Source: a virus. Taken from it: a stretch of 64,000 bases of DNA. The position numbers and the translations under genes were made by a program. The DNA lies in IMG/VR virus record IMGVR_UViG_3300045988_182793, positions 1 through 64,000 of that record, one strand, 5' to 3'. Numbering within the stretch: position 1 is the stretch's first letter; each line of letters starts with the position of its first letter. Positions 20,653 through 59,055 of this stretch are shown in pieces. Below the pieces are notes generated by a model. It was given only the letters and a program-made list of their open reading frames with translations. It was not told where the DNA came from and searched no databases.

Positions 20653-20707
20653 ATTGAGAAAAAGTAAGGCAGGCTCATTTCGGGCCTGCTTGTTTTTTGG
20701 GTGAAAT

Positions 20708-22903
20708 ATGATTACAACAAAGAAGATTGACCCACGGCCATATCAGCAGAAAGCTGCTGCGGCGATTCATAGAGAGTGGGATGCCGGGAATAAGAAAACG
20801 CTGGTTGTGATGCCGACCGGAACCGGCAAAACTATTGTGTTTGCAAGCATCGTGAACGACCAGGTGGCAAAGGGTGAACACGTTTTGATTCTTGCGCACC
20901 GGGAAGAGCTTTTACAGCAGGCAAGCGACAAGCTCAAGATGGTGACGGGGCTAGAGACCGCGTTAGAGAAAGCGCAAAGCTCGGCGCTCGATTCCGATAA
21001 GATGGTCGTGGTTGCCAGTGTTCAGACTCTCTCTAAGCAGAATCGGTTAATGAAGTATCCGCGTGATTATTTCGGGACTATCATCATTGATGAAGCGCAT
21101 CACACGGCAGCCAAAACTTACAAGGGAATTCTCGAGCATTTCATCGATGCCAAAGTGTTGGGCGTGACCGCAACACCCGACCGAAGCGACATGAAATCCC
21201 TATCTGATATCTTTGATAGTCTTGCATTTGAATATAAGCTCCCGGATGCAATTCGGGAAGGATATCTCTGCAAAATTAACACGAAGACAATTCCGGTCGA
21301 GGTAGACATCAGCAAGGTTCATATCAATGCCGGTGATTTCAGTGCTCAGGACCTCGGCAATGTTCTTGACCTGTATCTGGACACGATTGCGGATGCCATT
21401 GTGCGAGAATGCCAGAACCGAAAGACTGTCATCTTTACGCCTCTGGTACGAATCAGCAAAAGACTGTGTAATATCCTCAATAAGCGAAACTTCAAGACCG
21501 CAGAAGTCAATGGCGCGTCTGCGGACCGGAAGGACGTTCTGAAAGGGTTTGACAATGGCGAGTACAAGGCGCTGACGAACGCGATGCTCCTGACGGAAGG
21601 CTGGGATTGCCCGACCGTTGACTGTATCATCTGCTTGCGTCCTACCAAGAGCCGTAGCCTGTATGCGCAGATTGTGGGACGCGGAACACGCCTATGTGAA
21701 GGGAAAAAGAATCTTCTCGTGCTGGATTTCCTGTGGCTGACAAAGAAACATAGTCTTTGCCATCCTGCTGATATTTTCTGTGAAGACCCGGAAGTGGCAC
21801 AAAAGACCACCGATATGCTGGCGGATGCGGCACTCACCGGTTCGAATAGCCAGGAGAATTTCGGGAGTCCCGAATTGGGGCTGATTGAGGCAATCGAGGA
21901 AGCACAGACTGAGCTGGACGAGGAAAAGCGGAAAGCACTGTGTGAACTCGAAAAGCAGGATACGATTCAGCGCAAGCTCAAGGCACAGCGTCAAAAGCCG
22001 AGAGGATTGGTTGACCCGCTGCAGTACATTTTCAGCATCGAAGCGCCGGAACTCAACGATTATCAGCCGATGTTTGAGAGTGAGAGGCAGGAGCCTTCCG
22101 ATGACATCATCGATAGTATTTCGTGCTACGGCGTAAAAGGGGATGCCATCAAATCTCAGGGCCTTGCCGCTGCAATTCTCAAACGACTCATTGCTCGCAG
22201 AGCCAGCGGAATGGCTACCCCGAAACAGATTCGGTGTCTTGAAAGTTTTGGGTTCGTCCATGTTGGGCGCTGGACATTGCGCTATGCAAGCAGCTTTTTG
22301 GACATCATCAGTTCTCATGACTGGAAACTTCCGAATGGGTTCGACGCATCCACGCTGGACCCGGAAAAGAATACGGCAGAAGACCTCGCCAAGCTGTATC
22401 CAGACTACAAGGAAGATGAGACGAAGAAAGCACCGCGTGGGGATGCTTTCATCTGCTGCTACTACGATGCAAGCTACAATTTGGCTCGCAAGAAGGTCTG
22501 CAACAGTGAAAAAGAAATGTTGAATCTGTATTATTCACTGTTCAATACTTGCGAAGCAAAGTACTTCTATTATACGAAGGAAGCTGATGCCTGGATGGCA
22601 GAAAAGCAGAATCTAATTGCCAGAAAGACTGGAACACCGATTCCTGCCGCACAGCCGACTCAGGCAACACCCGCAGTACCTCCTCCCTTTGTCCCGACAG
22701 CTCCCGCTAAGAGCCACGAATATTATTGCTGCCTTGCCCGATGGGATGGGTCCTACATTGGCTATGAGATTTACAAGAGTGAGCAGGCAGCTCAGAATGC
22801 CCGAAAGCAGATTGCCCGGCGCGGTGAGACGGCAGTGTATGCCACAGTAGAGGAAGCCGAAGCGTGGGTCGAACAACAGAAGGCGGCAAGAACCAGGAGG
22901 TAA
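20708..22903 (+). CDS. DEAD/DEAH-box SF2 helicase (type III res-subunit-like) with ~330-aa unknown C-terminal region
   Basis: motif I MPTGTGKT, II DEAHH, III TATPDR, VI QIVGRGTR. Confidence 0.8.
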   Translation: MITTKKIDPRPYQQKAAAAIHREWDAGNKKTLVVMPTGTGKTIVFASIVNDQVAKGEHVLILAHREELLQQASDKLKMVTGLETALEKAQSSALDSDKMVVVASVQTLSKQNRLMKYPRDYFGTIIIDEAHHTAAKTYKGILEHFIDAKVLGVTATPDRSDMKSLSDIFDSLAFEYKLPDAIREGYLCKINTKTIPVEVDISKVHINAGDFSAQDLGNVLDLYLDTIADAIVRECQNRKTVIFTPLVRISKRLCNILNKRNFKTAEVNGASADRKDVLKGFDNGEYKALTNAMLLTEGWDCPTVDCIICLRPTKSRSLYAQIVGRGTRLCEGKKNLLVLDFLWLTKKHSLCHPADIFCEDPEVAQKTTDMLADAALTGSNSQENFGSPELGLIEAIEEAQTELDEEKRKALCELEKQDTIQRKLKAQRQKPRGLVDPLQYIFSIEAPELNDYQPMFESERQEPSDDIIDSISCYGVKGDAIKSQGLAAAILKRLIARRASGMATPKQIRCLESFGFVHVGRWTLRYASSFLDIISSHDWKLPNGFDASTLDPEKNTAEDLAKLYPDYKEDETKKAPRGDAFICCYYDASYNLARKKVCNSEKEMLNLYYSLFNTCEAKYFYYTKEADAWMAEKQNLIARKTGTPIPAAQPTQATPAVPPPFVPTAPAKSHEYYCCLARWDGSYIGYEIYKSEQAAQNARKQIARRGETAVYATVEEAEAWVEQQKAARTRR

Positions 22904-22907
22904 CAAG

Positions 22908-23462
22908 ATGCGTACAAACAAGACGGCAAGCCATATTTACTATGAGCTTGACCACGATGTGCAGGAATATGCGAAACGGCTTTTAGCCAAAAAAACTCTG
23001 CACGCGGTACGGCAGGACAATACTGCTTCATTGCCTGACGAAATGGCAAAAAAACTCTCCGAAACGGCAGTATTTCTGACCGAACGCCTCGCGCTTTTGT
23101 ATGAGCTGAATTCTGGATTCCGAGGCATCCGATTCAGCACTTTCGGAGAACAACCTGCTGTTTACACTACCATGGTCCAGCACAATGCTCCGCTGTACGA
23201 TGAGCTGATGCTTGGACGGGCCTATAACCTTGCCAACTACCTTGCTGCTGATAACGCGAATATCAAAGAATCTGCTTTGATGAAGCACAAGGTTTTGGCA
23301 GCAATTTATAGTGCCGCTGCACACATGAAAGGGCAGACTCCGGAGCGGAGAAAAATCTCGATTCAGAGCCAGATGTTTGTGTCTACGGCAATAGAGCTGT
23401 TTGATGGTCTTTTGAGTGCAGCGGCAGAGAAAAAGAACGGCGGCGATAAAAGTGCCGCCTGA
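22908..23462 (+). CDS. hypothetical protein (184 aa)
   Basis: ORF only. Confidence 0.45.
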   Translation: MRTNKTASHIYYELDHDVQEYAKRLLAKKTLHAVRQDNTASLPDEMAKKLSETAVFLTERLALLYELNSGFRGIRFSTFGEQPAVYTTMVQHNAPLYDELMLGRAYNLANYLAADNANIKESALMKHKVLAAIYSAAAHMKGQTPERRKISIQSQMFVSTAIELFDGLLSAAAEKKNGGDKSAA

Positions 23463-23484: not shown

Positions 23485-23937
23485 ATGATTCGAGTTAAGA
23501 AAGAGAACCACCGTAGTTGGTTCATGAGCAACTATTATCCTTGCGAATTTGTGATGAATGGGATTCGTTACAAGAACGCCGAGGCAGCATTCCAGAGTCA
23601 CAAGGTCCCACTGGAAGAGCGCAGACAGTTTGCGGACATGCCACCGGCTTCTGCCAAGCGCTTTGGCCGCAATGTAGCTATCCCCGCAAACTGGGATGAG
23701 GCTCGGGACGACGTGATGCGCCGCGTGGTGATGGCCAAGTTCGAGCAGAATGAGGACCTCAAACAGCGCCTCCTCGAAACGGGTACACAGCTTATTGAGG
23801 AGGATACTACCAGCTGGCATGACAATTACTGGGGCAACTGCCACTGCCAGAAATGCCGGAACATCCCGGGTCAGAATCGGCTCGGAATCATTCTCATGGA
23901 AACGAGAGATAAGCTGAAAAAGCAAGCGGGCAAATAA
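23485..23937 (+). CDS. NADAR / YbiA-like (DUF1768) N-glycosidase-family protein
   Basis: VMRRVVMAKFEQNEDLKQRLLETG...WHDNYWG...GQNRLGIILMETR closely parallels E. coli YbiA. Confidence 0.8.
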   Translation: MIRVKKENHRSWFMSNYYPCEFVMNGIRYKNAEAAFQSHKVPLEERRQFADMPPASAKRFGRNVAIPANWDEARDDVMRRVVMAKFEQNEDLKQRLLETGTQLIEEDTTSWHDNYWGNCHCQKCRNIPGQNRLGIILMETRDKLKKQAGK

Positions 23938-24047
23938 TGCTTGCAATGCATTGCGGGTTCCATATAATTAAAACCGTAATCAAAAAGAACTATCTTTTGC
24001 GAGGACTCCGTTGCCGACGGTGTTCTCGTTTTCTTTTGTTCAAACGC

Positions 24048-24092
24048 AAAAGGCTGCCGCCCAGTAATGGGTAGCAGCCTTATTTTTTTTGT
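24048..24092. terminator. bidirectional terminator
   Basis: GGCTGC...GCAGCC stem, A-run upstream, T8 downstream. Confidence 0.65.
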
Positions 24093-24141
24093 TTGTATCA
24101 ACCGATAGGGCAGCAAATCATCTTACCGCGTTCAGAACGAT

Positions 24142-26028
24142 TCACTGCACAATCTCGCCAAGGTCGTTTGCATATTTCGGGTCACACATCATGAAGTAGT
24201 TGACGGGGCCGTACTCCAGACCGAGCTCCTGCGCGTATGCCTTGATAGCTTCCAGAACGTCCTCTTTCTTGAGGCCAAACTTGGAATGCAGACGGGCAAA
24301 CTCTTTGTCAGAGACAGAAACGCAAGAGCAATTTTCTGCATCGGTTTCTTTGCTGCCCAGCATCCCGTCAAAGATGTCCTGCCCTGCACAGAGAATCGTC
24401 TCATTGTTCATCGCATAGGCGATAACGGAAGCCTTACAGTCAAAGTCGCTGTCTTCCACAAGGAAATCCTCAGGGCGGCCGTGACGTTCAACAACGTTTT
24501 CATAGATGTCCCGGAGTTCGATAGGAGCAGAAGGAGCGGTCAGCGCTGCTTTATGAAGGCGCATAAATTCCACAAGCTTTTCATCCGAGAGGGTATCGGT
24601 ATAAAAGCCGATGCCGGAAACGCGAACCTTCACTTCGCTGGCAAAGTAATCGTCAATTTTGGAGACGATTTTCTGCTGGACCCGCTTGTATGCTTCCTGA
24701 ACATTGGAAGCCGTGTAAAATACCGGGAACTTCATGATGTCGATTCCCTCCGGCAGACTCGCGTCATAGGCCGCATCAATGCCGCCTCGCAGCGTCGGAA
24801 CCGCGTCATGCAGCTCTTTCACAGAAGAAATGTATCCGGTAATGTACAGCTCATCGTTTTTGCTGTAATGCCCGATAAGTCCCACATAGAGGGTCTGCAT
24901 CAGCATCCGCTTGAAGCTGAACCAACAAAGACGAATAGGTAGAATGACATTAGCAGCCGTACCTTCCGCACGATAGGTGCCGGGGGCAGAGACCTTTTCC
25001 AGCAGAATCTGGTCGTTCTTGTCACCGTATTTTTCCTTGAAAAGAGCTTGAAGAATTTCAGTGGACGAAAGAGGAGTGGACATTGGAATCGTTTCATTCA
25101 GAAAAGAGAGGAATGCATCCACGTTGTCTTTCTGCCATGCGTCATCAGACATGCTTGCACGCTGCATAGAGAGCTTGTCTTTCCCGTCGTCAGGCAAGGG
25201 CTCATACCCACAGGCGATACGAAGCTCGTTCTCCGTGACAGCATCCGTTGCGCTTGCAATTTTCTTGATGGTATTCTCGGTCGGCTGAGCTTTCGCGTTG
25301 CCGTTCGCAAGGTTACTGATATATCCACGAGTCAGCCCCGCTTGAAACGCAAACTTACCCTGTGTGCGGGTTCCGATGGCTTTTTTGACCAGCGATGCCA
25401 GCCTTTGAAAGTCGGGCTCTTTGGGAAAGGTGGCCTCCGTATCCTTATTGCTGTTCTTTTCAAGTACCGACTTGTCCCAACCGGTGACAAGAGAATACCC
25501 AATATCCTTCAAGGATTGATAGGCAACCCCATTCTGGTCAAGAGCCGGGGAGTAAATACCGCTGTTATCTTCCAGCTGCTCTACTGCCTCACGCACCATC
25601 CTTGCTTCGTTCATCAGGATGACGTCCGGGGCTTCAAGCCGGGCAAGACTCTTGTACCGATTATTGAGGCGCTCGACTCGTGCGGCCAATGCAGTGATGT
25701 TGGCAACTTGGTCTTCCGTTGCATGGGCAGAGATATCTGCACCAAGTTCAAAATGGTTCAGTGCAGGAATATCCACGCCTTTGCTCTTGGCGAATTCCAC
25801 AATGGCTTCCGCGCCATAGAAACGCTTCTCATGGGCTGCGACAACTTTCGTTATCGTGTCGGCCGAGTTGTCCAGCTCAAGCACTTCACCTTTTCCGGCA
25901 TCCTCGACATAACACCTGGCGTTGGTGAGAAAGCCTTTCAAAAAATCAGCATCCACATCCAGATTCTTAGCGATGCCGGGCAGCTGCTTATAGAAAATCA
26001 CGGGCGTGGCGAGGTTAACAGAAATCAT
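24142..26028 (-). CDS. large reverse-strand protein (628 aa) with internal XRE-like HTH (GKFAFQAGLTRGYISNLANG)
   Basis: only long minus-strand gene inside the + block; own AT-rich promoter region 26030-26240. Confidence 0.6.
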   Translation of the reverse strand: MISVNLATPVIFYKQLPGIAKNLDVDADFLKGFLTNARCYVEDAGKGEVLELDNSADTITKVVAAHEKRFYGAEAIVEFAKSKGVDIPALNHFELGADISAHATEDQVANITALAARVERLNNRYKSLARLEAPDVILMNEARMVREAVEQLEDNSGIYSPALDQNGVAYQSLKDIGYSLVTGWDKSVLEKNSNKDTEATFPKEPDFQRLASLVKKAIGTRTQGKFAFQAGLTRGYISNLANGNAKAQPTENTIKKIASATDAVTENELRIACGYEPLPDDGKDKLSMQRASMSDDAWQKDNVDAFLSFLNETIPMSTPLSSTEILQALFKEKYGDKNDQILLEKVSAPGTYRAEGTAANVILPIRLCWFSFKRMLMQTLYVGLIGHYSKNDELYITGYISSVKELHDAVPTLRGGIDAAYDASLPEGIDIMKFPVFYTASNVQEAYKRVQQKIVSKIDDYFASEVKVRVSGIGFYTDTLSDEKLVEFMRLHKAALTAPSAPIELRDIYENVVERHGRPEDFLVEDSDFDCKASVIAYAMNNETILCAGQDIFDGMLGSKETDAENCSCVSVSDKEFARLHSKFGLKKEDVLEAIKAYAQELGLEYGPVNYFMMCDPKYANDLGEIVQ

Positions 26029-26029
26029 G

Positions 26030-26240
26030 GTGTACTCCTTTCAGATGTGTCATTTGCTGTATAATAATGTCATCTTCTGTAATTATAATAGCACATCTCT
26101 CGCCAAAAAGCAAGCATGAATTTACAATAAATGACAATAAAACACACAAGATGACATATTTGAGCAAAGCAATTGATTCTTGAGCTTTCCGGCTTGGTGA
26201 CGGAACAAGCTCTATGCGCCTTGTCTTTACCACAGTTTTG
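26030..26240. promoter_or_regulatory. divergent promoter region with 4 TGTCAT/ATGACA half-sites
   Basis: gtgtcatttg, aatgtcatct, aaatgacaat, agatgacata read directly. Confidence 0.45.
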
Positions 26241-26275
26241 CCTTGTACATCCGTGCGAATTAAATACAATTAAAG
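26240..26275 (+). promoter_or_regulatory. copy 8 of conserved promoter motif (TCCGTGCGAATTAAATACAAT)
   Basis: consensus match. Confidence 0.6.
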
Positions 26276-26319
26276 ATGTCGAAAGATAAAGCACAACACA
26301 CAAAAAAGGAAATTTCACT

Positions 26320-26640
26320 ATGAACACCAGTATTTTGAAACTCAAAGCCACTGTAATCCGCCCCAAAGACGATGATGAACTTGACGGCCTTGCCGCATCC
26401 ATCAGCTTTCCCGTCGAATGCGATGATGAAGCAATTGGCGAGGCTCTGGGCGACCATGACCTGATGGCCTATGTTGTCGGAGAGCTACACGACCTCGTTG
26501 TCCGAATGCGTCCCGAATGGCTGGATAATGAGGATACTAGCCTGACCATCAAGGCATTCCTGGACGAAGCTGAGTACCAGACGTTCAAGGGCCTTGTCGC
26601 GATGAAAGAAGACAGCTACACCTTTGTTATTGAGGGCTAA
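26320..26640 (+). CDS. hypothetical acidic protein (106 aa)
   Basis: ORF with RBS AAAGGAAA. Confidence 0.5.
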   Translation: MNTSILKLKATVIRPKDDDELDGLAASISFPVECDDEAIGEALGDHDLMAYVVGELHDLVVRMRPEWLDNEDTSLTIKAFLDEAEYQTFKGLVAMKEDSYTFVIEG

Positions 26641-26763
26641 ACACCACAGAGCAAAAAGCAAACCAAGCCTGCAGTAAAATGCGGGTAGGACTTTTTTGTT
26701 TGCGTAGCTGCATCCTTTTGTCCGCAGAAACCGTAGGTGCCAGGATGCGTAGCTGCCGATGTG

Positions 26764-26800
26764 TCTTGACCCGGCGTGCGAATCTCATACAATCAAATCT
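26764..26800 (+). promoter_or_regulatory. copy 9 of conserved promoter motif (GGCGTGCGAATCTCATACAAT), no obvious gene before next copy
   Basis: preceded by direct repeat GCGTAGCTGC x2 (26701-26750). Confidence 0.5.
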
Positions 26801-26869
26801 GTACGAAAGATACTATGCACACAATAGAATTCACACTAAGCTGCTCAGTGGCCTTATGGCTATTGGGTA

Positions 26870-26905
26870 GCTTTTTCTTTTGTGCGAACTGCGTACAATA
26901 AAAAT
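26870..26905 (+). promoter_or_regulatory. copy 10 of conserved promoter motif (TTTGTGCGAACTGCGTACAAT)
   Basis: consensus match. Confidence 0.6.
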
Positions 26906-26922
26906 CAGACGGAGGAACAACT

Positions 26923-27330
26923 ATGAAAAAATTTATTGGGACTGCTCTGGTGCTGTGCTGCCTGGCTCTACCTTTGGCTGGCTGTGAGGACGCAATCAGC
27001 ACTGTGACAAGTACCACAATGTCTGAACTCGAAGATATCCCGAACCAGATATTGGCCACACCGGAAAGTGCTGAGATGAAACCGGAATACAATTACATCC
27101 ATTTTCGTTACGACAACATCTGGACTGTATCTGCCCTCGTGAACTACGAAATCGTGGACAACGGCCAAAACATAAAATTTGAAATCAACGATAGTCGTTA
27201 TCGAGACAAGGTTTTTTATACCAGCATGTCGAATGTAGAGCTCGTATACCGAGACGATAGCGTTGATTATCGCACGGGCTATGCGGTTTATCCGGGGAAT
27301 GCCTCGAAATTTGGAAAAGGTGGTAAGTGA
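26923..27330 (+). CDS. small lipoprotein (MKKFIGTALVLCCLALPLAGC)
   Basis: signal peptide + lipobox. Confidence 0.6.
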   Translation: MKKFIGTALVLCCLALPLAGCEDAISTVTSTTMSELEDIPNQILATPESAEMKPEYNYIHFRYDNIWTVSALVNYEIVDNGQNIKFEINDSRYRDKVFYTSMSNVELVYRDDSVDYRTGYAVYPGNASKFGKGGK

Positions 27331-27331
27331 G

Positions 27332-27808
27332 ATGAGCATAAATTTTGTTGATGGCAATATTTTTTCACGACTGTCAACGAACAAGACGACATATATCTGC
27401 CAACAAGTGAATTGTAAAGGTGTAATGGGAGCTGGACTTGCCATGCAAATTTGCATCCAATGGCCGGTGGTATATCAGCGCTATCTGGAGTTTTGCTATG
27501 GAAACGACGGCAACAAGCTCGGTACTTATCAGGAGGTTCTGGTAGAACCGAAGCTGTATGTCGTGAATCTGTTCGGGCAGAATGGTTATAGCCGAGGTGA
27601 AAGGCAGACGAATTATGCTGCACTGGCGGCTGCGCTGTTCTCGTTTTTTAGAGACTGCGCTCAAAAGTATCAGGACGTAACTATCCGGTTGCCATATGGT
27701 TTAGGCTGCGGACTTGCCGGAGGTGACTGGAATACGGTTCTGGACATCATCAGCGATGCAGCAAAAGCCTGGAATCTGAATGTTGAGATTTGGGAACTCC
27801 AACAGTAA
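27332..27808 (+). CDS. Macro-domain (ADP-ribose binding/hydrolase)-like protein
   Basis: QQVNCKGVMGAGLAMQI resembles VNAAN..L.GGGV.GAI motif; later RLPYGLGCGLAGGDW. Confidence 0.55.
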   Translation: MSINFVDGNIFSRLSTNKTTYICQQVNCKGVMGAGLAMQICIQWPVVYQRYLEFCYGNDGNKLGTYQEVLVEPKLYVVNLFGQNGYSRGERQTNYAALAAALFSFFRDCAQKYQDVTIRLPYGLGCGLAGGDWNTVLDIISDAAKAWNLNVEIWELQQ

Positions 27809-27812
27809 TAGC

Positions 27813-27852
27813 AGAAAGACCCTTACCGAAAATCGGTAGGGGTCTTTCTTTT
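27813..27852 (+). terminator. rho-independent terminator
   Basis: AAAGACCCTTACCG..CGGTAGGGGTCTTT + T-run. Confidence 0.7.
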
Positions 27853-27965
27853 CTGTAGGGATGCAAATATGTACAGATTGCAAACAAATGACACCTGCCG
27901 TTGCAGAAAAAGCACGATAGTGGGATAATATTAGTAAAGAAACAACAACATCATCAGTAAAGTAA

Positions 27966-28955
27966 GTGAAAAAGCCTATGACAAACGCAGAACTAAAAGC
28001 AATCGTCCAGCGCGAGGAATACGATTTCCTGCACACCAACAAACACTTGGGGAGCAACATTTTATTCCTAACGCTTAGCGGCAGTCATGCCTACGGAACC
28101 AACGTCGAAGGCTCCGATATCGATATACGTGGCGTGGCAGGCTCACCCGAAATCTTAGGGTTTAACCGCTTCGAGCAGGCCATTGACAACCGGACAGATA
28201 CAGTCATCTACGCTGTGAACAAGTTCGTCGGCTTGCTTGCGCAGGGTAATCCCAGCATTATCGAACTTCTTGGCAATGACCCGGAGCTATATGTGAACAT
28301 GACGCCGGAAGGCCAAATGCTGCTTGACAATAGGGAACTGTTCTTGACTCGGCGCATTGCCTACAGCTATGGCGGCTTTGCGAACGACCAGCTCAGACGT
28401 TTGCAGATGGGACTCCTTCGTAATGGGGCCTCGCCGGAAGCATTCAAGAACAAATTCGAAAAGAGAAGCCTGGAACGGTCGATTACCGGATGGGGCAAGG
28501 ATGACATTTTTGAAATTTCCATCAGTGAGGATACAGATGAAGAAGGCAAACATCCGCTCCTGATTTCTGGCAGCTTGAACGATTATCCAGTCACCTCTCT
28601 AAAGTCGCTGCTAAAGAGTCTGACTACGACCATCGACCAGTATGAGCAGCCGCAGCATCCAAAAGCACAAAAAGATGCTGCCCACATCAACAAACACGCG
28701 ATGCACATTGTGCGGTTGTACTACACGGCGTTCGATATTCTGGAAAAAGGCGAGATTATCACTCGCCGAGACAAGGAACGCGAGGAACTGTTGGCGATTC
28801 GCAACGGCAAGTACCTGCGTGAAGACGGGTCGTACGCACCCGAATTCTTTGAGCTTGTTGATGCACTCGAAAAGAGATTTCAGTATGATGTGAAGAAGAC
28901 GATTGAAGAACTGTTGGTAGAAATCAATAAGTCGTATCTGCGACGCGTTTTTTGA
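27966..28955 (+). CDS. Pol-beta-superfamily nucleotidyltransferase (RlaP/DUF2204-like)
   Basis: GSHAYGTNVEGSDIDIRGV (GS...DxD) near N-terminus; LLAQGNPSIIELL. Confidence 0.55.
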   Translation: MKKPMTNAELKAIVQREEYDFLHTNKHLGSNILFLTLSGSHAYGTNVEGSDIDIRGVAGSPEILGFNRFEQAIDNRTDTVIYAVNKFVGLLAQGNPSIIELLGNDPELYVNMTPEGQMLLDNRELFLTRRIAYSYGGFANDQLRRLQMGLLRNGASPEAFKNKFEKRSLERSITGWGKDDIFEISISEDTDEEGKHPLLISGSLNDYPVTSLKSLLKSLTTTIDQYEQPQHPKAQKDAAHINKHAMHIVRLYYTAFDILEKGEIITRRDKEREELLAIRNGKYLREDGSYAPEFFELVDALEKRFQYDVKKTIEELLVEINKSYLRRVF

Positions 28956-29005
28956 CGCACTCCCACCCCTTACGGAGTGGGCTTTCCCGGCGCGGGGACT
29001 GTAAA

Positions 29006-29040
29006 ATAAAGCTTGCACATCTGTGCGAATCAGATATAAT
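29006..29040 (+). promoter_or_regulatory. copy 11 of conserved promoter motif (TTGCACATCTGTGCGAATCAGATATAAT)
   Basis: best consensus copy: TTGCAC-16-TATAAT. Confidence 0.65.
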
Positions 29041-29063
29041 AACCCTAATAAGATAAAAATTGT

Positions 29064-29110
29064 GCCCTGACGGCATCTGAATTGGATGCTGCCGGGGCAT
29101 TTTTGTTTGT
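29064..29110 (+). terminator. leader hairpin+T-run between promoter and UvrD-like gene
   Basis: 14-bp stem GCCCTGACGGCATC/GATGCTGCCGGGGC then ATTTTTGTTTG. Confidence 0.5.
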
Positions 29111-29126: not shown

Positions 29127-31847
29127 ATGACACTGAACGACTTGTCAAGCGAACAGCAGGAATTCGTACATTTGGCATTGTCGGGCAAAAACGTATTGTG
29201 TGACGCCTGCATCGGCAGCGGAAAAACATCGACTATCAACGTACTCTGCGATGCATATCCACCAGAACGGCGTATTTTGTACTTGACCTACAACCGATTA
29301 CTCAAACTTGATGCCAAAGACAAAATCAAGAATGGCAATGTCCTGGTTCAGAACTATCATGGATTTGCAAGCCTGCTGCTGAACAAAAAGGGAATCCGGA
29401 ATTGCGGACAGGGCGAACAGCTTGCCATGGTATTGGAAAAGAAAATTCCGATTCCGCCGATTGATACTCTTATCATTGACGAGTATCAGGATATCAATGA
29501 CGAGATTGCAGAACTGCTCAAATATATCCGCTCTAAGAATCCGGGCCTTCAAATCGTCGCAGTGGGCGATATGAAGCAGAAAATCTACGATGATACAGCG
29601 CTGGATGTCTGGGAGTTCATGCAGGATTTTCTCGGCCGCCATGAACAGGTGGTTTTCACGAAATGCTTCCGTATTTCTCATGACTTGGCAGAACGACTCG
29701 GCAACATCTGGGGCAAGACCATCAACGGCGTAAATAGCTCCTGTATCGTGGAACAGATGTCGGTCGATGAAGTAACAGAGTTCCTGAATAAGCAGAACCC
29801 CAAAAATGTCCTTTGCCTGGGTGCTCGAATTGGAGCCATGACGAAGGTGCTCAACGACTTGGAGAATCGACCGGGGAACCTCTATGACAAGCATCATGTC
29901 TATGCAAGTATCGCAGACAATGACGGGAATAAAGCAGTAGCGCCCTCCTCGGATGTTGGTATCTTCACGACTTTTGACGGCAGCAAAGGTATGGAGCGGC
30001 CTATCTGCGTTGTGTTTGATTTCACGGAAGAATACTGGTCGTCTCGCACAAACAAACCGATGGCACGATATGAGATTCTTCGGAATCTGTTTTGTGTCGC
30101 AGCAAGCCGAGGAAAGCAGCGAATCATTTTCGTAAACTCAGACCATCCGTTGAGCGATAAATCTCTGATGACCCCAACTGAAACTCTTCGCGGATTTCCG
30201 CATCCGTTCGCATTCTCTGAAATGTTTGACCATAAATTCATCGAGGATGTAGATACCTGCTATAAGCTGTTGGAAGTCACACCGATTGAACGTAATGATA
30301 CCACGACCATTGATATCCAGACGGCAGATGCAATGATTGATTTGTCTCCCTGCATCAGTATCTACATGCAGGCAGGATTCTTTAATTCCTACGATATAGA
30401 TGACGCACTTGCGTATTATATGGACCTGCATAAAGACATGCAGTATTTGAAAATCAAGAAGGGCGCAACGGTCGAGGATAAGGTTCTACTGCTCACAGCA
30501 CTCGAAACGAATCAGTGCAGGTATGTAAAACAGGTCAAGCCTCCTTTTGTGAACGCAAAAGCCAAAATGTCGCTCAGTATGCGGCTTGGAACCGTGTTCA
30601 CTCCCGATGAATATGTTCAGGCACGCGGCGATATCGACATTCATACTAAGGACCATAAAGTAATTTATACCTCGGGTCTTGCGGATGTCGTAAAGAATAA
30701 TACCGTCTACTGCATCAAATTCATCAGCAGCCTGGCACATAAGCATTTTCTGCAGTGTGCGTGTTCCATGATGGCATTGGGGTTGCCGTATGGCGTTGTC
30801 TGGAACGTCAAAAGTAACCTGATGTACAGCGTAAAAATCAAGGATATAGACGCTCTGATTGACGCAATTACCAAGTGCATTACGAAACGGGTTTATGATA
30901 GCGCAGATGACTACACCTGCAGGAAAGGTTTTGTACAGGATACCGCGTCGATTATCGACCGATGGACTGACGACGGATATGCGGAAGAGCCCACCACTAT
31001 CACTTCCGGCGACGGTATTGCCATCATCAAGCAAGGAAGCCGCTATTTTGTGATGGACGGAGCACGTCGAAACACCCTGAACGATAATTTCGGGATGGGC
31101 TTTGCCGATGTAAAAGATGCTTGCCTTGCTTATGCAAAGAGTTGTGAACTCCAGAAAATCGTGGACCATGATTCTCCTTATTCCGAAGTCGAATTCTGGC
31201 TCGACCAGAACAAGGCGTTTGAGGAATACATGACGCAAGTAAGCCATGAAATCGAACAGCACAAGGAAGGACCGTATGCAAAGTATAAGTCTCTTGCTGC
31301 TCCCGCTGTCCGAAAGATGCTGGCCGAAAAGGGACTGACCATCATGTTCCCGGAAAAGGTCCTCATCAAGGTCTGGAAGATGCGCCGTGTCGAAGATGCC
31401 ATGTATCAGAAAATTGAAGAAGCAAAGAAGCAGAACAGCTCCAATGTACCGCTTGATGAGGCGTTCTTTGACTCTGAACTGGTGGATTCCGTTGAGGGAA
31501 GCATCGAAAGCGCCAAGGCAAAATCCAAGCCCAAAAAGGAATCCGCATTACCGTTTTCCAAGTACTGCGCAGATGAGAAGAAGAGCTATCGTGTCGTGAA
31601 AAGCGATGAACTCTCAAAGCCCAACCAGCCCCGTTATGTTGTGGTCGAGACCGCTACTGATAAGGTCCTGGACAATGCTAACGGATATGGCTACCTTTCC
31701 TATCAGGCTGCCTGGAAAGGCTATTCGTACAAGAGCAAGCATCATCTGGACGGCACGAAGAAACCGATAAGTAAGAGTGCAAAAGAGCAGGCAAAGAAAA
31801 AGGCGGCTTTCTTTTCAACTGACTCGGAGCAGCTCAGCTTTGGCTGA
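29127..31847 (+). CDS. UvrD/PcrA-like SF1 helicase (N-terminal ~400 aa) fused to ~500-aa unknown C-terminal region
   Basis: motif I CIGSGKTST, II IIDEYQD, III VGDMKQKIY, IV FTKCFR. Confidence 0.75.
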   Translation: MTLNDLSSEQQEFVHLALSGKNVLCDACIGSGKTSTINVLCDAYPPERRILYLTYNRLLKLDAKDKIKNGNVLVQNYHGFASLLLNKKGIRNCGQGEQLAMVLEKKIPIPPIDTLIIDEYQDINDEIAELLKYIRSKNPGLQIVAVGDMKQKIYDDTALDVWEFMQDFLGRHEQVVFTKCFRISHDLAERLGNIWGKTINGVNSSCIVEQMSVDEVTEFLNKQNPKNVLCLGARIGAMTKVLNDLENRPGNLYDKHHVYASIADNDGNKAVAPSSDVGIFTTFDGSKGMERPICVVFDFTEEYWSSRTNKPMARYEILRNLFCVAASRGKQRIIFVNSDHPLSDKSLMTPTETLRGFPHPFAFSEMFDHKFIEDVDTCYKLLEVTPIERNDTTTIDIQTADAMIDLSPCISIYMQAGFFNSYDIDDALAYYMDLHKDMQYLKIKKGATVEDKVLLLTALETNQCRYVKQVKPPFVNAKAKMSLSMRLGTVFTPDEYVQARGDIDIHTKDHKVIYTSGLADVVKNNTVYCIKFISSLAHKHFLQCACSMMALGLPYGVVWNVKSNLMYSVKIKDIDALIDAITKCITKRVYDSADDYTCRKGFVQDTASIIDRWTDDGYAEEPTTITSGDGIAIIKQGSRYFVMDGARRNTLNDNFGMGFADVKDACLAYAKSCELQKIVDHDSPYSEVEFWLDQNKAFEEYMTQVSHEIEQHKEGPYAKYKSLAAPAVRKMLAEKGLTIMFPEKVLIKVWKMRRVEDAMYQKIEEAKKQNSSNVPLDEAFFDSELVDSVEGSIESAKAKSKPKKESALPFSKYCADEKKSYRVVKSDELSKPNQPRYVVVETATDKVLDNANGYGYLSYQAAWKGYSYKSKHHLDGTKKPISKSAKEQAKKKAAFFSTDSEQLSFG

Positions 31848-32820: not shown

Positions 32821-32884
32821 ATAATTGATTTTTACACCTCCGATGTTACGGCATCGGGGGTTTTGTTTTTGGGAGGATACGGAG

Positions 32885-33931: not shown

Positions 33932-34755
33932 AAGGGAAAAATGGAATGGATATAAAATGGGAAATTGCCTTTTATTTAATTGAAGCAAAAAAGGCTGTCG
34001 ATTCTTTATGGTATATATCAAACCATGTCAGCGAATTATATGATGTCAGGCAATTATGCAACGATAGACGAAGTCAGTATTACATTAACACCTGTGCCGT
34101 CTTAGATAAAACTGTGTGTGATGGTAAAGGAAAGAAAAAGGAATTAACGCAAAACGACAATGTTATTGCGCACATCTATTACGAAAGAGATAAGCACTAC
34201 GCTCACAAAGATAGTGATTATAAACAAAACTATCCGTGGACAAATTTGGAACAAGAAGCGTTTGCATTACAAGAGGAATTGCGCCACATTTTAGAAAAAT
34301 GTAAGGATTATCTTCCACAAGTGCTTACACTCGACTTTGTATGTTATGACAGCGTCCAATATCGATATATCAATAAAATTGGCAAAAGTGATGAAGAAAA
34401 AATCAAAGAAGAAAAACATCCTTTTTATAACAATCCGTTCCAATTGAATGCAAAGCCGATAAGAAAGAAACCTATATATGATATTGAGGCTATTAAAAGT
34501 ATCCCTGATAATAAACATAATGAGTATTGTGTTGTCATAGAAAGCGGTTTGACGTTTGAAGAAGATTTACAAAATAGGCAAGATGCTTTAATCAAGTTGA
34601 ATATGCTGTGCGGCAAAAATCTTTGGTGCAGAAAGAATGAATCGATGTGGAATGAATGTCTTAGATTACGGGAATTAGGGATATTTGACGCCTTTGGAAG
34701 ACTAAATTGCAGAAGAATTATAGAAGAAATAGAGAAAGGAAACAACATCTTATGA
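33928..34755 (+). CDS. hypothetical protein, AT-rich, translationally coupled between MTase and DUF262-HNH
   Basis: ATGA overlaps at both ends (33928/33931 and 34752/34755); low GC. Confidence 0.5.
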   Translation: MKGKNGMDIKWEIAFYLIEAKKAVDSLWYISNHVSELYDVRQLCNDRRSQYYINTCAVLDKTVCDGKGKKKELTQNDNVIAHIYYERDKHYAHKDSDYKQNYPWTNLEQEAFALQEELRHILEKCKDYLPQVLTLDFVCYDSVQYRYINKIGKSDEEKIKEEKHPFYNNPFQLNAKPIRKKPIYDIEAIKSIPDNKHNEYCVVIESGLTFEEDLQNRQDALIKLNMLCGKNLWCRKNESMWNECLRLRELGIFDAFGRLNCRRIIEEIEKGNNIL

Positions 34756-57196: not shown

Positions 57197-57272
57197 GCTG
57201 GTTTAGCTCAGCTGGTAGAGCAACTGATTTGTAATCAGTCGGTCATCGGTTCAAGTCCGATTTCCAGCTCCA
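57197..57272 (+). tRNA. tRNA-Thr (anticodon TGT); acceptor has two U-U mispairs
   Basis: cloverleaf traced by hand; D and T arms canonical. Confidence 0.6.
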
Positions 57273-57745
57273 GACGCTATCCGTTGGATGTATCGAAATC
57301 ACATGATACGATGCTATACACAACATCTGGCGGACAGCATGCCACCCATTAAGGCGGCCTCCTCGTGGCGGGTGGCGGACAGCGGCTCTTGCGGCTGCTG
57401 ACGAATGTCTTAGAAGCATGCAAACGTACGAGCATCCCCGTCAAGTCGGGGCGCATCCAGACGCGACACAGCCGTAAAGGCGAGATTGCTGCACGGCAAC
57501 TGGTAAGTTTCGCCGCAGTCTCACACACAGCCCAACAACAACCGTTAACCCGATTTGACAGGGAATCAACGACAGGGCTCAAAATTTGAAGTTGACCAAC
57601 ACCCAAGCGCTTTCTTGGATTCTCGCGTATCGTCAACGATGAGGTTCGCAAGATTGTCAGGTGGTGTGAAGATGACATCCGGGGATGACGACCTACTAAA
57701 CGGATGTCATGGCGGGGCTAAGTGAGGGTTCACCCGCAATCTTAT

Positions 57746-57820
57746 GCAGGTATCGTATAACGGCTAATACTCCGCCCCTCCAAGGCGGAGACGCGGGTTC
57801 GACCCCCGCTACTTGCTCCA
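57746..57820 (+). tRNA. tRNA-Gly (TCC)
   Basis: cloverleaf traced; encoded CCA. Confidence 0.7.
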
Positions 57821-58092
57821 CACGTCGCAGTCACCGTACGCCACGACGTTAAACTTGGTGAGCATGGTCCACTTGTGGTCCGCTGTCCGAATGTCGATGA
57901 GACAGCCTCAAAAATAATAGACAAACAGGTGCTGTGCCTGAAAGTATTCGAAAGTCCCGGTGTTAGTCGCGAATAAGACCGGAAAACGGTGAAGAGGGTA
58001 CAATACAGAATCTATCGGCGTGGCTGCCGAATGGTGCTGGATGCGAGTTGGCTTCTCGCTCAAGGGGTGACCAGCATAAAACACCCTATCGT

Positions 58093-58168
58093 GCTCGATT
58101 AGCTCAGTTGGTAGAGCAGCGCATTCGTAACGCGCAGGTCGGCAGTTCGAACCTGCCATCAAGCCCCA
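58093..58168 (+). tRNA. tRNA-Thr (CGT)
   Basis: cloverleaf traced; one A-C mismatch in anticodon stem. Confidence 0.65.
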
Positions 58169-58206
58169 TTACCCAATGAAGCGATAATAGAAAGGAGATG
58201 AAACTT

Positions 58207-58590
58207 ATGGAACAGGCAATTATCAATGTCGAAGGTACAACTACCATTGAAACCGCTGCAGCAGCCAAAAAGCTGATTGGGATGCTTGGCAACCAGAACG
58301 TCCGCGCCATCGCTGTCAACCGTGTAAACGACAAGAGCGACGAGGTCATTGTTGAACTCGATTTCGTTCCCGGTTTGGCACCGCATCTGCACGGCTTCAC
58401 GCTTCAGGTTAATGGCTTGACCTGTGGTTATGCTGGTACTGGTCCTTCCAATCTGTATGAAGTCCTGCAGGCGGCTGGCGTGAGTGAAGCTCAGGTAGCA
58501 CGCGAGGACATCACTCAGAAGAGCACAAAAACCATTCCTCTGCGCCTGGAACGCGCCGTGACTCAGTACGGCGACTTCCAGTTTGCGTAA
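58207..58590 (+). CDS. hypothetical protein (127 aa)
   Basis: RBS AAAGGAGA. Confidence 0.5.
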   Translation: MEQAIINVEGTTTIETAAAAKKLIGMLGNQNVRAIAVNRVNDKSDEVIVELDFVPGLAPHLHGFTLQVNGLTCGYAGTGPSNLYEVLQAAGVSEAQVAREDITQKSTKTIPLRLERAVTQYGDFQFA

Positions 58591-58620
58591 CGCTATTTGG
58601 CGGGCTTGACCCGCCATCAT

Positions 58621-58696
58621 GGAGGGATAGCTTAGCTGGATAAAGCACCTGCCGCAAAGCAGGGTATCGATGGTTCGAGGCCATCTCCCTTCTCCA
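58621..58696 (+). tRNA. tRNA-like with perfect 5-bp anticodon stem but 6-nt loop CGCAAA (Cys-GCA-like?)
   Basis: acceptor, D, T arms and CCA fit; anticodon loop non-canonical. Confidence 0.45.
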
Positions 58697-59055
58697 TCCA
58701 GACACCCTTTCGCTTCCTTTCGCCAAAGGTATCTGGGGTATTGTACTGCATTGCGTGTAGTACGGCCAATCAGGCGCGGAACTCCGAAACCATACCACGA
58801 AGAATTTTATCCTCTCCGCGCAGCATGGACATGCGATTTTACGGGGATAAATTCAAACCGAAATTGTGTCGAGTGGCGAAGACGGTTGCGACACTGGCGA
58901 AGCACATATCTGCTTCGTCAACCATCCATGAGAAAGCCTCCACGTGGCAGATGGTGGGCAACGCAGCAAAGCTGCGGCTGATTTCTTTCAAACCGGTATC
59001 TGAATAAATGCAGATAAATAGACGAAAAAATCAAAAAAGCAAAGGAGTACACAGC

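What the first reader, a model, noticed from the sequence alone, without database searches (positions are those of the whole stretch)
23485..28955. Cluster of ADP-ribose/nucleotide-processing genes (NADAR, Macro, Pol-beta NTase) likely acting as counter-defence
A YbiA-type NADAR protein (23485-23937), a Macro-domain protein (27332-27808) and an RlaP/DUF2204-like nucleotidyltransferase (27966-28955) lie within 5.5 kb, next to the UvrD-like helicase. NADAR and macro domains both remove ADP-ribose adducts, including from DNA bases (established for DarT/DarG-type chemistry). Phages carrying both would be equipped to reverse ADP-ribosylation-based immunity.
Basis: partly seen in the sequence, partly recalled or inferred. 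Interest (0 to 1): 0.65.

Follow-up and report, generated by a model that had tools for sequence, protein, structure and literature searches.

The report
Phage ADP-ribose erasers plus RNA-repair enzyme
A large phage-like element carries, in a highly variable accessory region, two separate enzymes predicted to strip ADP-ribose from DNA bases and one RNA-end repair enzyme. All three belong to phage gene families that are already described, so this is a solid but ordinary example.

Summary
A NADAR gene (23485-23937), a macrodomain gene (27332-27808) and an RlaP nucleotidyltransferase gene (27978-28955) are real, intact and under purifying selection. NADAR and RlaP pass Pfam cut-offs. The macrodomain fails Pfam's cut-off but is confirmed by matches to solved macrodomains and by a confident predicted fold.

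The NADAR is YbiA/Phytophthora-type and keeps all nine ADP-ribose-contacting residues. The macrodomain is SCO6735/BT1257-type: it has Gln where DarG, TARG1 and PhiKZ AdfM have the catalytic Lys. SCO6735 is a proven thymine-ADP-ribose DNA hydrolase that rescues cells from DarT.

The counter-defence reading is therefore plausible for these two genes and matches the published phage factors AdfN (a NADAR) and AdfM (a macrodomain). RlaP does not process ADP-ribose. It adds nucleotides to damaged RNA 3' ends, which fits this phage's 18 tRNA genes.

The three genes are not one system. They lie in three transcription units and are gained and lost independently among close relatives. The same slot elsewhere holds methyltransferases, a homing endonuclease, TnpB and a Cas5/Cas8c/Cas7 set.

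Verdict: new members of known kinds, in a counter-defence hot-spot. Interest is low to moderate.

The parts
20708..22903 (+). SF2 DNA helicase (731 aa), first gene of the transcription unit that ends with the NADAR gene
   Evidence: ResIII 1.5e-36, DEAD, SWI2_SNF2 and Helicase_C. phrog_16 'DNA helicase' 1.9e-97. 52% identical to the Faecalibacterium phage Lugh helicase. Terminator-like hairpin upstream at 20667-20691.
22908..23462 (+). p184, a lineage-restricted protein of unknown function, 22 nt upstream of NADAR
   Evidence: No Pfam, PHROG, NCBIfam, PADLOC or PDB match. All 72 homologues come from this lineage at 62-97% identity. It is the most variable of the longer genes here: mean 85% aa identity, dN/dS 0.26. 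The AF2 model is unreliable (pLDDT 46.6) and predicted all-helical.
23485..23937 (+). NADAR protein (150 aa), YbiA/PnNADAR (Glu) type; predicted guanine-ADP-ribose N-glycohydrolase
   Evidence: PF08719 94.5 bits. YbiA 2b3w 3e-13 and PnNADAR 8bau 1e-10. E33, K40, K58, R62, W70, R74, E105, D113 and W116 align with PnNADAR E43, K50, K75, R79, W89, R93, E125, D130 and W133. dN/dS 0.06.
24142..26028 (-). 628-aa HTH protein on the opposite strand, separating NADAR from Macro. Not part of the ADP-ribose genes. Contains a copy of the RNA polymerase beta' clamp helices.
   Evidence: HTH_3 2.7e-6. Residues 110-176 match beta' (E. coli 264-311; C. difficile 7l7b 253-321). 96-99% conserved in relatives.
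26320..26640 (+). p106, small acidic protein (pI 4.2) of unknown function
   Evidence: No family match. 24 acidic against 9 basic residues. Present and absent together with the lipoprotein-Macro block in most relatives.
26838..26873 (+). Terminator-like hairpin (16 pairs) upstream of the lipoprotein-Macro unit
26923..27330 (+). Predicted lipoprotein (135 aa). Its stop codon lies 1 nt before the Macro start codon.
   Evidence: N-terminus MKKFIGTALVLCCLALPLAGC with a lipobox. Adjacent to the Macro ATG. No family match beyond the signal peptide.
27332..27808 (+). Macrodomain protein (158 aa), SCO6735/BT1257 (Gln) subclass of ALC1/TARG1-like macrodomains; predicted thymine-ADP-ribose DNA glycohydrolase
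   Evidence: The GVMGAG (30-35) and GCGLAGG (125-131) loops, N27 and Q83 are invariant or nearly so in 26 homologues. dN/dS 0.12.
27813..27849 (+). Strong intrinsic-terminator-like hairpin (17 pairs, T tract) directly after Macro
27978..28955 (+). RlaP-family Pol-beta nucleotidyltransferase (325 aa from the ATG); predicted RNA 3'-end NMP-adding repair enzyme
   Evidence: PF10127 71.1 bits. phrog_388 4e-45. G35-S36...D47-x-D49 motif, and an in-frame 10-aa deletion before the last helix relative to other alleles. dN/dS 0.10.
29127..31847 (+). UvrD-like SF1 helicase (906 aa from the ATG), conserved right-hand anchor of the variable slot
   Evidence: AAA_19 3.7e-10 and UvrD-helicase 5.9e-8. Gene calls on relatives. 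Present in nearly all relatives.
57197..63412 (+). Array of 18 tRNA genes (context: a large phage with a stake in tRNA supply, relevant to RlaP)
   Evidence: ARAGORN

Best explanation
The window comes from a large, very common metagenomic phage-like element, with contigs up to about 268 kb. The interval between a conserved SF2 helicase and a conserved UvrD-like helicase is a hot-spot for interchangeable accessory and counter-defence cargo. In this haplotype it holds three independent cassettes.

1. A YbiA/Glu-type NADAR, co-transcribed with the SF2 helicase and the lineage-specific p184. It most likely removes ADP-ribose from guanine in phage DNA (possibly RNA), as the phage AdfN proteins do against DarT1-type toxins.

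2. A stand-alone SCO6735/BT1257-type macrodomain, co-transcribed with a lipoprotein. It most likely removes ADP-ribose from thymine in single-stranded DNA, using the Gln-dependent mechanism described for SCO6735 rather than the Lys of DarG. Functionally this equals the phage factor AdfM against DarT2-type toxins.

3. An RlaP nucleotidyltransferase in its own unit. It most likely restores one or two nucleotides at damaged RNA or tRNA 3' ends. That is a counter-measure to RNA-targeting defences and is unrelated to ADP-ribose.

Shown here: the domain identities, conserved active-site residues, purifying selection, transcription-unit layout and modular gain and loss.

Inferred: the substrates and the counter-defence role.
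For: Identity:
- NADAR.
- Macro.
- RlaP.

Active sites:
- All nine PnNADAR ADP-ribose-contacting or catalytic residues are conserved in the NADAR (residue list from PMC11543638).
- The macro N27 and Q83 correspond to SCO6735 Asn27 and Gln85. Mutating those residues abolishes thymine-ADPr hydrolysis (PMC9411070). They are nearly invariant and invariant, respectively, in 26 homologues.

Functional precedent:
- AdfN (PMC11825919).
- AdfM (PMC13309987).
- SCO6735 rescues cells from DarT.
- RlaP biochemistry (PMC12776372).

Selection: dN/dS is 0.06, 0.12 and 0.10 for NADAR, Macro and RlaP.

Modularity: of 21 IMG/VR relatives with the whole interval observed, 11 carry all three genes, 3 NADAR+Macro, 3 NADAR only, 1 NADAR+RlaP, 1 Macro+RlaP, and 1 more RlaP with a truncated Macro. 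There are three transcription units.

Hot-spot context:
- Alternative cargo in the same slot is a GIY-YIG endonuclease, type I methylase M+S subunits, TnpB and Cas5d/Csd1/Cas7.
- Nearby genes include an orphan EcoRI-family methylase (360 bits), a GmrSD_N-HNH protein and an MBL-fold protein with a faint Apyc1 hit.

Phage nature: IMG/VR membership, 18 tRNA genes, Phage_lysozyme2 just beyond the window, and a phage-type helicase.

Independent Macro-NADAR linkage elsewhere: directly adjacent genes in L068, 4 kb apart in L087.
Against: - No enzymatic, genetic or host data are available. The host is unidentified: the genome scan found nothing. So it is unknown whether the host has DarT-like toxins.
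- E. coli YbiA and T4 gp30.3 hydrolyse guanine-ADPr in vitro but did not rescue cells from DarT1 when expressed alone (PMC11125620). Johannesman et al. regard YbiA-like NADARs as largely housekeeping.
- The NADAR also passes the NCBIfam 'riboflavin intermediates N-glycosidase' cut-off.
- In the macro, SCO6735 Val25 corresponds to Gln25 and DNA-contacting Lys89 to Ser87. The mobile loop is two residues shorter.
- Comparative genomics by Iyer et al. argues that most phage Macro and NADAR proteins act on soluble ADP-ribose derivatives rather than on macromolecular adducts (PMC9503650).
- The precomputed AcrVA2-like annotation of the neighbouring gene was not reproduced by my hmmscan.
Confidence: 0.55

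Rival explanations
1. The three genes cooperate in NAD+-dependent RNA (tRNA) repair. RlaP rebuilds RNA ends, and the macrodomain (as an ADP-ribose-1''-phosphate phosphatase, like Poa1p) and NADAR clear ADP-ribose by-products of a KptA/Tpt1-type 2'-phosphotransferase step.
For: - RlaP is by definition linked to RNA ligases.
- The closest full-length cultured-phage RlaP homologue (C. difficile phage AR1086-1, 36% identity) lies about 5 kb from kptA.
- In L066 an RlaP sits beside a CCA-adding enzyme and 7 kb from a NADAR.
- The macro matches Poa1p (3e-7; profile 5e-15) and phrog_335 'phosphatase'.
- The window holds 18 tRNA genes.
- De Souza, Aravind and Iyer proposed this role for Macro and NADAR.
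Against: - No RNA ligase, KptA, polynucleotide kinase/phosphatase or 2H phosphoesterase was found in the ORFs scanned across the 64-kb window or in the precomputed annotations of flanks.
- The genes lie in separate transcription units and are lost independently.
- The macro is closer to BT1257 and SCO6735 (full length, 5e-26 and 7e-21) than to Poa1p (N-terminal 110 residues only).
- SCO6735 was inactive on 5'-phosphate-linked ADP-ribose in one assay of PMC11833690. That paper's own Discussion states the opposite.
Confidence: 0.15
2. The macrodomain and NADAR degrade soluble NAD+-derived immune signals or toxic metabolites (cyclic ADP-ribose isomers, ADPr-1''P and similar) from TIR/Thoeris-like or related systems, rather than removing adducts from DNA.
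For: Iyer et al. 2022 argue this for most phage Macro and NADAR proteins. They report that the two domains co-occur in DNA-virus genomes more often than chance and are sometimes fused. Other viral NADARs retrieved here are fused to DUF4326 or DUF488-N3a, an architecture those authors link to processing of small ADPr derivatives.
Against: - Every phage NADAR and phage macrodomain tested so far acted on DNA adducts (AdfN, AdfM).
- The nearest characterised macro relative is a DNA thymine-ADPr hydrolase.
- A literature search found no macrodomain-based anti-Thoeris enzyme.
- The NADAR here is co-transcribed with a DNA helicase. E. coli ybiA is likewise in an operon with dinG. This points to a DNA context.
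Confidence: 0.15
3. p184 and NADAR form a phage-borne toxin-antitoxin-like pair (an ADP-ribosyltransferase with its NADAR antidote, as in DarT1-NADAR or YarT-YbiA), so the NADAR protects against the phage's own enzyme.
For: p184 lies 22 nt upstream of NADAR in the same unit. Both genes show deep allelic divergence relative to their flanks. ART-NADAR pairs exist.
Against: - p184 has no ART, DarT or any other family match.
- It is predicted all-helical, unlike the beta-rich ART fold, although the model is low-confidence.
- It is confined to this phage lineage.
- p184 and NADAR alleles do not co-vary strictly.
Confidence: 0.05
4. The NADAR is a metabolic N-glycosidase for riboflavin-pathway intermediates (the YbiA housekeeping function), and the macrodomain acts on ADP-ribosylated proteins. 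Neither is related to defence.
For: TIGR02464 'riboflavin biosynthesis intermediates N-glycosidase' scores 83.2 against a cut-off of 73.7. YbiA is the closest solved structure. SCO6735 also de-ADP-ribosylates proteins.
Against: - No riboflavin genes were seen in the window.
- The gene lies in a variable accessory slot of a phage next to methylases, nucleases and Cas genes.
- All NADAR subtypes tested, including YbiA, hydrolyse guanine-ADPr.
Confidence: 0.07

Closest known systems
AdfN, the phage NADAR anti-DarTG1 factors (T4 gp30.3; Bas32 and Bas60 NADARs), PMC11825919
   Same: A stand-alone phage-encoded NADAR with the conserved Glu and Lys pair (E33 and K40 here; E36 and K43 in T4, with the same 7-residue spacing). 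It is an orphan, antitoxin-like enzyme with no toxin partner.
   Different: It is not the T4 type. The Pfam Phage_30_3 model scores 20.2 bits against a cut-off of 36. The subfamily-defining position is Glu (E105), as in YbiA and PnNADAR, not the His of T4-like phage NADARs or the Asp of DarG1. No activity or protection was tested. It is embedded in a helicase operon.
AdfM, the PhiKZ gp104 macrodomain anti-DarTG2 factor, PMC13309987
   Same: A stand-alone phage macrodomain of about 160 aa from the DarG/TARG1-like (ALC1-like) class, with the same VN..GVMGAGLA and GC..GG loops.
   Different: Only 26% identity. AdfM has the DarG-type catalytic Lys (K78, 'FPTKDNW'), while this protein has Gln83 ('LFGQNGY'). 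No phage-nucleus context is known for this element.
SCO6735 (Streptomyces coelicolor) and BT1257 (Bacteroides thetaiotaomicron) macrodomains, PMC9411070; PDB 5e3b, 2fg1, 2afc
   Same: These are the best sequence, profile and fold matches. The Asn27 and Gln85 equivalents are conserved (N27, Q83). The proteins are full-length, single-domain and of similar size.
   Different: They are cellular, not phage, proteins. Identity is 24-28%. The SCO6735 Val25 and Lys89 positions are Gln25 and Ser87 here, and the mobile DNA-clamping loop is 2 residues shorter.
DarG antitoxin of DarTG2
   Same: The macro part aligns with DarG models (NCBIfam 2.5e-12, PADLOC 1.3e-13). The fold matches 5m3e and 5m3i.
   Different: There is no C-terminal DarT-binding domain, no adjacent DarT gene, and Gln replaces the catalytic Lys. 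The score is 46.8 bits against a cut-off of 250.
E. coli YbiA and Phytophthora nicotianae NADAR (PDB 2b3w, 8bau)
   Same: These are the closest solved structures. The protein has the Glu-type 'YbiA family' signature and a minimal core without the N-terminal DNA-binding extension of DarT1-linked NADARs. Like E. coli ybiA (in an operon with dinG), it is co-transcribed with a DNA helicase.
   Different: It is phage-encoded, in a variable accessory slot, with no riboflavin or SOS context.
RlaP nucleotidyltransferases (P. fluorescens and P. aeruginosa RlaP; T4 NrdC.11), PMC12776372
   Same: PF10127 membership, a Pol-beta G-S...D-x-D motif, and an N-terminal NTase domain plus a C-terminal helical domain of similar length (phrog_388 covers the full length).
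   Different: No RNA ligase (RtcB or Rnl), RtcA or Pnkp gene is nearby. There is no sequence match to any solved structure. This allele has a 10-aa deletion before the C-terminal helix.

Membership tests
NADAR superfamily (PF08719) | Profile match above the curated cut-off over the whole domain | tested here: met
   94.5 bits against 35.1, residues 7-145 on profile positions 6-163 of 163
NADAR superfamily (PF08719) | Conserved ADP-ribose-binding and catalytic residues (PnNADAR E43, K50, K75, R79, W89, R93, E125, D130, W133) | tested here: met
   E33, K40, K58, R62, W70, R74, E105, D113 and W116 align with them
NADAR superfamily (PF08719) | Hydrolysis of guanine-linked ADP-ribose | not testable with these tools
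   Needs an enzyme assay
T4 gp30.3-type phage NADAR (AdfN-T4) | Phage_30_3 profile match, and His at the PnNADAR E125 position | tested here: not met
   PF08010 scores 20.2 bits against 36. The position is Glu105.
AdfN (functional class: anti-DarTG1) | Restores phage growth on DarTG1 hosts or neutralises DarT1 | not testable with these tools
   Experimental
Macrodomain (PF01661) | Pfam profile above the gathering score | tested here: not met
   13.5 bits, E 0.073, against a cut-off of 22. Homologues at about 45% identity and the E. coli phage PD06 homologue do pass.
Macrodomain (PF01661) | Macro fold (three-layer alpha/beta/alpha) with two glycine-rich ADP-ribose-binding loops | tested here: met
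   AF2 pLDDT 91.3. Foldseek gives BT1257 TM 0.86, and TARG1, Poa1p, SCO6735 and DarG all at probability 1.00. GVMGAG 30-35 and GCGLAGG 125-131 are invariant or nearly so.
SCO6735/BT1257 subclass of ALC1-like macrodomains | Gln at the position of the TARG1/DarG catalytic Lys, plus the Asn27 equivalent | tested here: met
   Q83 is invariant and N27 is at least 90% conserved in 26 homologues. Both align to the SCO6735 'GQ' and 'N' positions. Their role is taken from PMC9411070.
SCO6735/BT1257 subclass of ALC1-like macrodomains | Val/Ile25 and the Lys-rich mobile DNA-binding loop (Lys89, Lys94) | tested here: inconclusive
   Gln25 stands in place of Val25, whose proposed role is backbone-mediated. 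Ser87 replaces Lys89. Arg91 lies at the second Lys position. The loop is 2 residues shorter.
DarG antitoxin | Macro domain with catalytic Lys80, a C-terminal DarT-binding domain and an adjacent darT gene | tested here: not met
   The protein is 158 aa and only the macro part aligns: 46.8 bits against 250. Gln stands in place of Lys. No DarT or ART gene was found in the neighbourhood.
RlaP (PF10127) | Profile match above the cut-off, plus the Pol-beta NTase motif | tested here: met
   71.1 bits against 23. G35-S36...D47-I48-D49. The position of the third conserved Asp was not determined.
RlaP (PF10127) | Genomic association with an RNA ligase or RNA-repair operon | tested here: not met
   None found in the ORFs scanned across the 64-kb window or the annotated flanks. 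The rest of the roughly 268-kb genome was not seen.
RlaP (PF10127) | Adds 1-2 NMPs to RNA 3'-OH | not testable with these tools
   Experimental

The most novel reading that the evidence does not exclude
This abundant phage lineage carries a two-pronged DNA de-ADP-ribosylation kit.
- The first part is a Gln-type (SCO6735-like) macrodomain, a mechanistic variant of the Lys-type AdfM that has not been tested as a phage counter-defence.
- The second part is a YbiA/Glu-type NADAR that works with the co-transcribed SF2 helicase and the fast-evolving p184 as a helicase-coupled repair module for guanine adducts.

Together they would cover both thymine- and guanine-directed DarT-like toxins in an unidentified host.
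Probability: 0.3. Interest if true: 0.45.

Novelty: new member of a known kind. Interest (0 to 1): 0.3.

Why it matters
If the predicted activities hold, one very common large metagenomic phage would neutralise both known chemistries of DarT-type DNA ADP-ribosylation. It would use a Gln-type macrodomain not yet validated in phages and a YbiA-type NADAR whose role in cells is debated. This would extend AdfM- and AdfN-type counter-defence beyond Pseudomonas and E. coli phages, and it would imply that ADP-ribosylating defences matter in this phage's hosts. The modular presence and absence among otherwise near-identical genomes gives natural 'knock-outs' for testing that. None of this changes current concepts: phage NADAR, macrodomain and RlaP genes and their co-occurrence are already documented.

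Tried and rejected
- Megablast of 12-15 kb around the locus against cultured phages and plasmids found no match, so no annotated close relative exists.
- A scan of species-representative bacterial genomes for the macro protein found nothing. The host remains unknown.
- Exact-protein look-ups failed for RlaP from the GTG start, for the 564-aa VWA protein and for the 393-aa ORF at 943-2124. For RlaP the cause is the start codon plus a 10-aa deletion specific to this window.
- I tested whether p184 could be a DarT- or YarT-like toxin. It has no family or PDB match, it is confined to this lineage, and the AF2 model is too poor (pLDDT 46.6) for a fold search. The predicted all-helical content argues against an ART fold. 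The idea is rejected as unsupported, not disproved.
- Obligatory three-gene system: rejected on the haplotype and terminator evidence.
- 'DarG homologue' as a label for the macro: rejected, because of Gln in place of Lys and the missing second domain.
- The AcrVA2-like label for 17850-18797 comes from precomputed annotation. My own hmmscan did not reproduce it, so I give it little weight.
- A literature search for macrodomain anti-Thoeris enzymes returned nothing relevant.

Full report
**What is there.**

- The NADAR gene (23485-23937, +) has a good ribosome-binding site. It matches Pfam NADAR at 94.5 bits against a cut-off of 35.1.
- The macrodomain gene (27332-27808, +) does not reach Pfam's Macro cut-off: 13.5 bits, E 0.073, against 22. 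Independent evidence settles the assignment:
  - phmmer hits to solved macrodomains: SCO6735 5e3b 6.6e-13, BT1257 5e-11, Poa1p 3e-7;
  - a 26-member family profile hitting BT1257 at 5e-26, SCO6735 at 7e-21, and DarG and Poa1p at about 5e-15;
  - matches to the macro half of DarG models in NCBIfam and PADLOC;
  - a confident AlphaFold model (pLDDT 91.3) that superposes on BT1257 (TM 0.86), TARG1, Poa1p, SCO6735 and DarG.
- The RlaP gene matches PF10127 at 71.1 bits over its N-terminal half and phrog_388 over its full length. Its likely start is the ATG at 27978, not the GTG at 27966. This allele carries an in-frame 10-residue deletion just before the C-terminal helix.
- A UvrD-like helicase follows at 29127-31847.

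**What kind of NADAR and macrodomain.**

- The NADAR is closest to E. coli YbiA and to the Phytophthora NADAR. All nine residues that contact ADP-ribose or are catalytically implicated in the Phytophthora structure (PMC11543638) are conserved: E33, K40, K58, R62, W70, R74, E105, D113 and W116.
- The subfamily-defining position is Glu (YbiA family). It is not the Asp of DarT1-linked antitoxins or the His of T4-like phage NADARs. The T4 gp30.3 profile accordingly scores below its cut-off.
- The macrodomain belongs to the ALC1/TARG1-like class but to the SCO6735/BT1257 branch. The position of the catalytic Lys of DarG, TARG1 and PhiKZ AdfM is an invariant Gln (Q83), and N27 is nearly invariant.
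- In SCO6735, Gln85 and Asn27 are exactly the residues whose mutation abolishes cleavage of thymine-linked ADP-ribose from DNA, and SCO6735 rescues cells from DarT (PMC9411070).
- Gln-type homologues occur in cultured phages, for example Geobacillus virus E3 and E. coli phage PD06, where they are annotated as 'phosphatase' or 'Appr-1-p processing'.

**Genome context.**

- The exact macro protein is listed in 605 blocks of the metagenome collection, on contigs up to about 268 kb. Relatives are in IMG/VR.
- The window also holds 18 tRNA genes, and a phage lysozyme gene lies just beyond it. The SF2 helicase is most similar to those of Faecalibacterium and Streptococcus phages.
- I therefore treat the element as a large phage. 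No capsid or terminase gene was seen in the window, no cultured relative exists, and no host could be identified.

**Gene organisation.**

- Strong terminator-like hairpins lie at 20667-20691, 26838-26873 and 27813-27849, and a 628-aa gene lies on the opposite strand.
- Together these split the region into three units: SF2 helicase-p184-NADAR, lipoprotein-Macro, and RlaP alone. The UvrD-like helicase follows.
- The three genes are therefore not an operon.

**Are they a unit in evolution? No.**

- I ran tblastn of the window's proteins against 62 related loci. Among 21 IMG/VR contigs where the whole interval between conserved anchors is observed, the haplotypes are as follows:

| Genes carried | Contigs |
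|---|---|
| NADAR + Macro + RlaP | 11 |
| NADAR + Macro | 3 |
| NADAR only | 3 |
| NADAR + RlaP | 1 |
| Macro + RlaP | 1 |
| RlaP + truncated Macro | 1 |

- In haplotypes lacking Macro and RlaP, the slot carries a GIY-YIG endonuclease, type I methyltransferase M and S subunits and a TnpB-like protein. In others a Cas5d/Csd1/Cas7 set plus TnpB is inserted between RlaP and the helicase.
- Each of the three genes is nevertheless under purifying selection: dN/dS 0.06, 0.12 and 0.10. Their synonymous divergence is higher than that of the flanking core genes, as expected for cassettes exchanged among lineages.
- Some linkage between this macro subfamily and NADAR recurs outside the lineage. The genes are directly adjacent in L068 and 4 kb apart in L087, out of 28 distant NADAR loci. 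This agrees with the published observation that the two domains co-occur in DNA viruses more than by chance (PMC9503650).

**Mechanism.**

- The best-supported reading is three independent counter-defence cassettes in a hot-spot.
- The NADAR would remove guanine-linked ADP-ribose, as shown for all NADAR subtypes tested in vitro (PMC11125620) and for phage AdfN proteins in vivo (PMC11825919).
- The macrodomain would remove thymine-linked ADP-ribose by the Gln-dependent SCO6735 mechanism, the functional equivalent of PhiKZ AdfM (PMC13309987).
- RlaP would add one or two nucleotides to damaged RNA 3' ends (PMC12776372). This makes sense in a phage that invests in 18 tRNA genes, but it has nothing to do with ADP-ribose.
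- These substrate assignments are inferences from homology and conserved residues. Nothing here tests activity.

**Rivals.**

- A joint NAD+-dependent RNA-repair pathway is suggested by RlaP homologues near kptA and near a CCA-adding enzyme in other phages. No ligase, KptA or end-healing enzyme was found in the ORFs scanned across 64 kb here, and the genes are inherited independently.
- Degradation of soluble ADP-ribose-derived signals cannot be excluded, but it has no experimental precedent for these subfamilies.
- A p184-NADAR toxin-antitoxin pair is unsupported.
- A housekeeping riboflavin role is suggested only by a marginal NCBIfam score.

**Novelty.** Phage NADARs (AdfN), phage macrodomains (AdfM), phage RlaPs and the co-occurrence of Macro and NADAR in large phages are all published. 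What is mildly new:
- a Gln-type macrodomain and a Glu-type NADAR occur together in one abundant uncultured phage lineage;
- the NADAR is coupled to a helicase;
- the population data are clear enough to show that these genes are interchangeable cargo.

I rate this as new members of known kinds, with low to moderate interest.

Noticed in passing
window 24142-26028 (-): A 628-aa protein with an HTH_3 domain (aa 222-269) carries at aa 110-176 a clear copy of the RNA polymerase beta' clamp helices: E. coli beta' 264-311, C. difficile 7l7b 253-321, rpoC TIGR02386 E 1.2e-7. From general knowledge, this is the coiled-coil that binds sigma region 2 and NusG/RfaH. It could be a sigma or NusG decoy. It is 96-99% conserved in relatives. 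A literature search found no described phage protein of this kind.
   Followed up: partly
L001 and L003, 12179-17333 (relatives; the insertion site corresponds to window ~29000-29100): In some haplotypes a Cas5d/Csd1(Cas8c)/Cas7 trio, with no Cas3 or adaptation genes in view, plus an IS605-type TnpB, is inserted between RlaP and the UvrD-like helicase. L039 has a Cas7 fragment in the same slot.
   Followed up: no
window 57197-63412: An array of 18 tRNA genes, including one with an unusual 2-nt 'anticodon' call at 58621-58696.
   Followed up: no
window 22908-23462 (+): p184 is confined to this phage lineage and evolves faster than its neighbours: 76-97% identity and dN/dS 0.26, against 0.06-0.08 for NADAR and the helicase. 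It sits in the NADAR transcription unit. Its function is unknown and the AF2 model is unreliable.
   Followed up: partly
window 26320-26640 (+) and 26923-27330 (+): A small acidic protein (pI 4.2, 24 D+E in 106 aa; possibly a DNA mimic) and a predicted lipoprotein whose stop codon lies 1 nt before the Macro start. Both travel with the Macro block in relatives.
   Followed up: no
window 17850-18797 (+); L092 14344-15420: Precomputed annotation labels near-identical proteins as AcrVA2-like (PF26125). A second copy lies about 14 kb beyond the right end of the window. My own hmmscan of the window protein gave no hit.
   Followed up: partly
window 32825-33931, 34707-35888, 43497-44657, 46305-47045, 60475-61179: Further likely counter-defence or accessory genes:
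- an orphan EcoRI-family adenine methylase (360 bits);
- a GmrSD_N+HNH protein;
- an MBL-fold protein with a faint anti-Pycsar Apyc1 hit;
- a small radical-SAM protein;
- an HD_4 (RelA/SpoT-type HD) protein.
   Followed up: no
window 7035-11380 and 12084-14249: An SPFH/flotillin protein followed by a VWA-domain protein, and a 721-aa PLD-family (NgoFVII-like) nuclease. This is unusual cargo for a phage, and its function here is unknown.
   Followed up: no
window 28880-28890 (RlaP): This window's RlaP allele lacks 30 nt (ALPAKPDCGK) that are present in L001 and L002, just before the C-terminal helix. In the PfRlaP structure that helix packs against the NTase domain.
   Followed up: partly
L063 9368-10900; L087 9581-10387: Other viral NADARs are fused to DUF4326 or to a DUF488-N3a domain. 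In L068 a Gln-type macro gene abuts the NADAR gene directly (3119-3655 and 3656-4072).
   Followed up: partly
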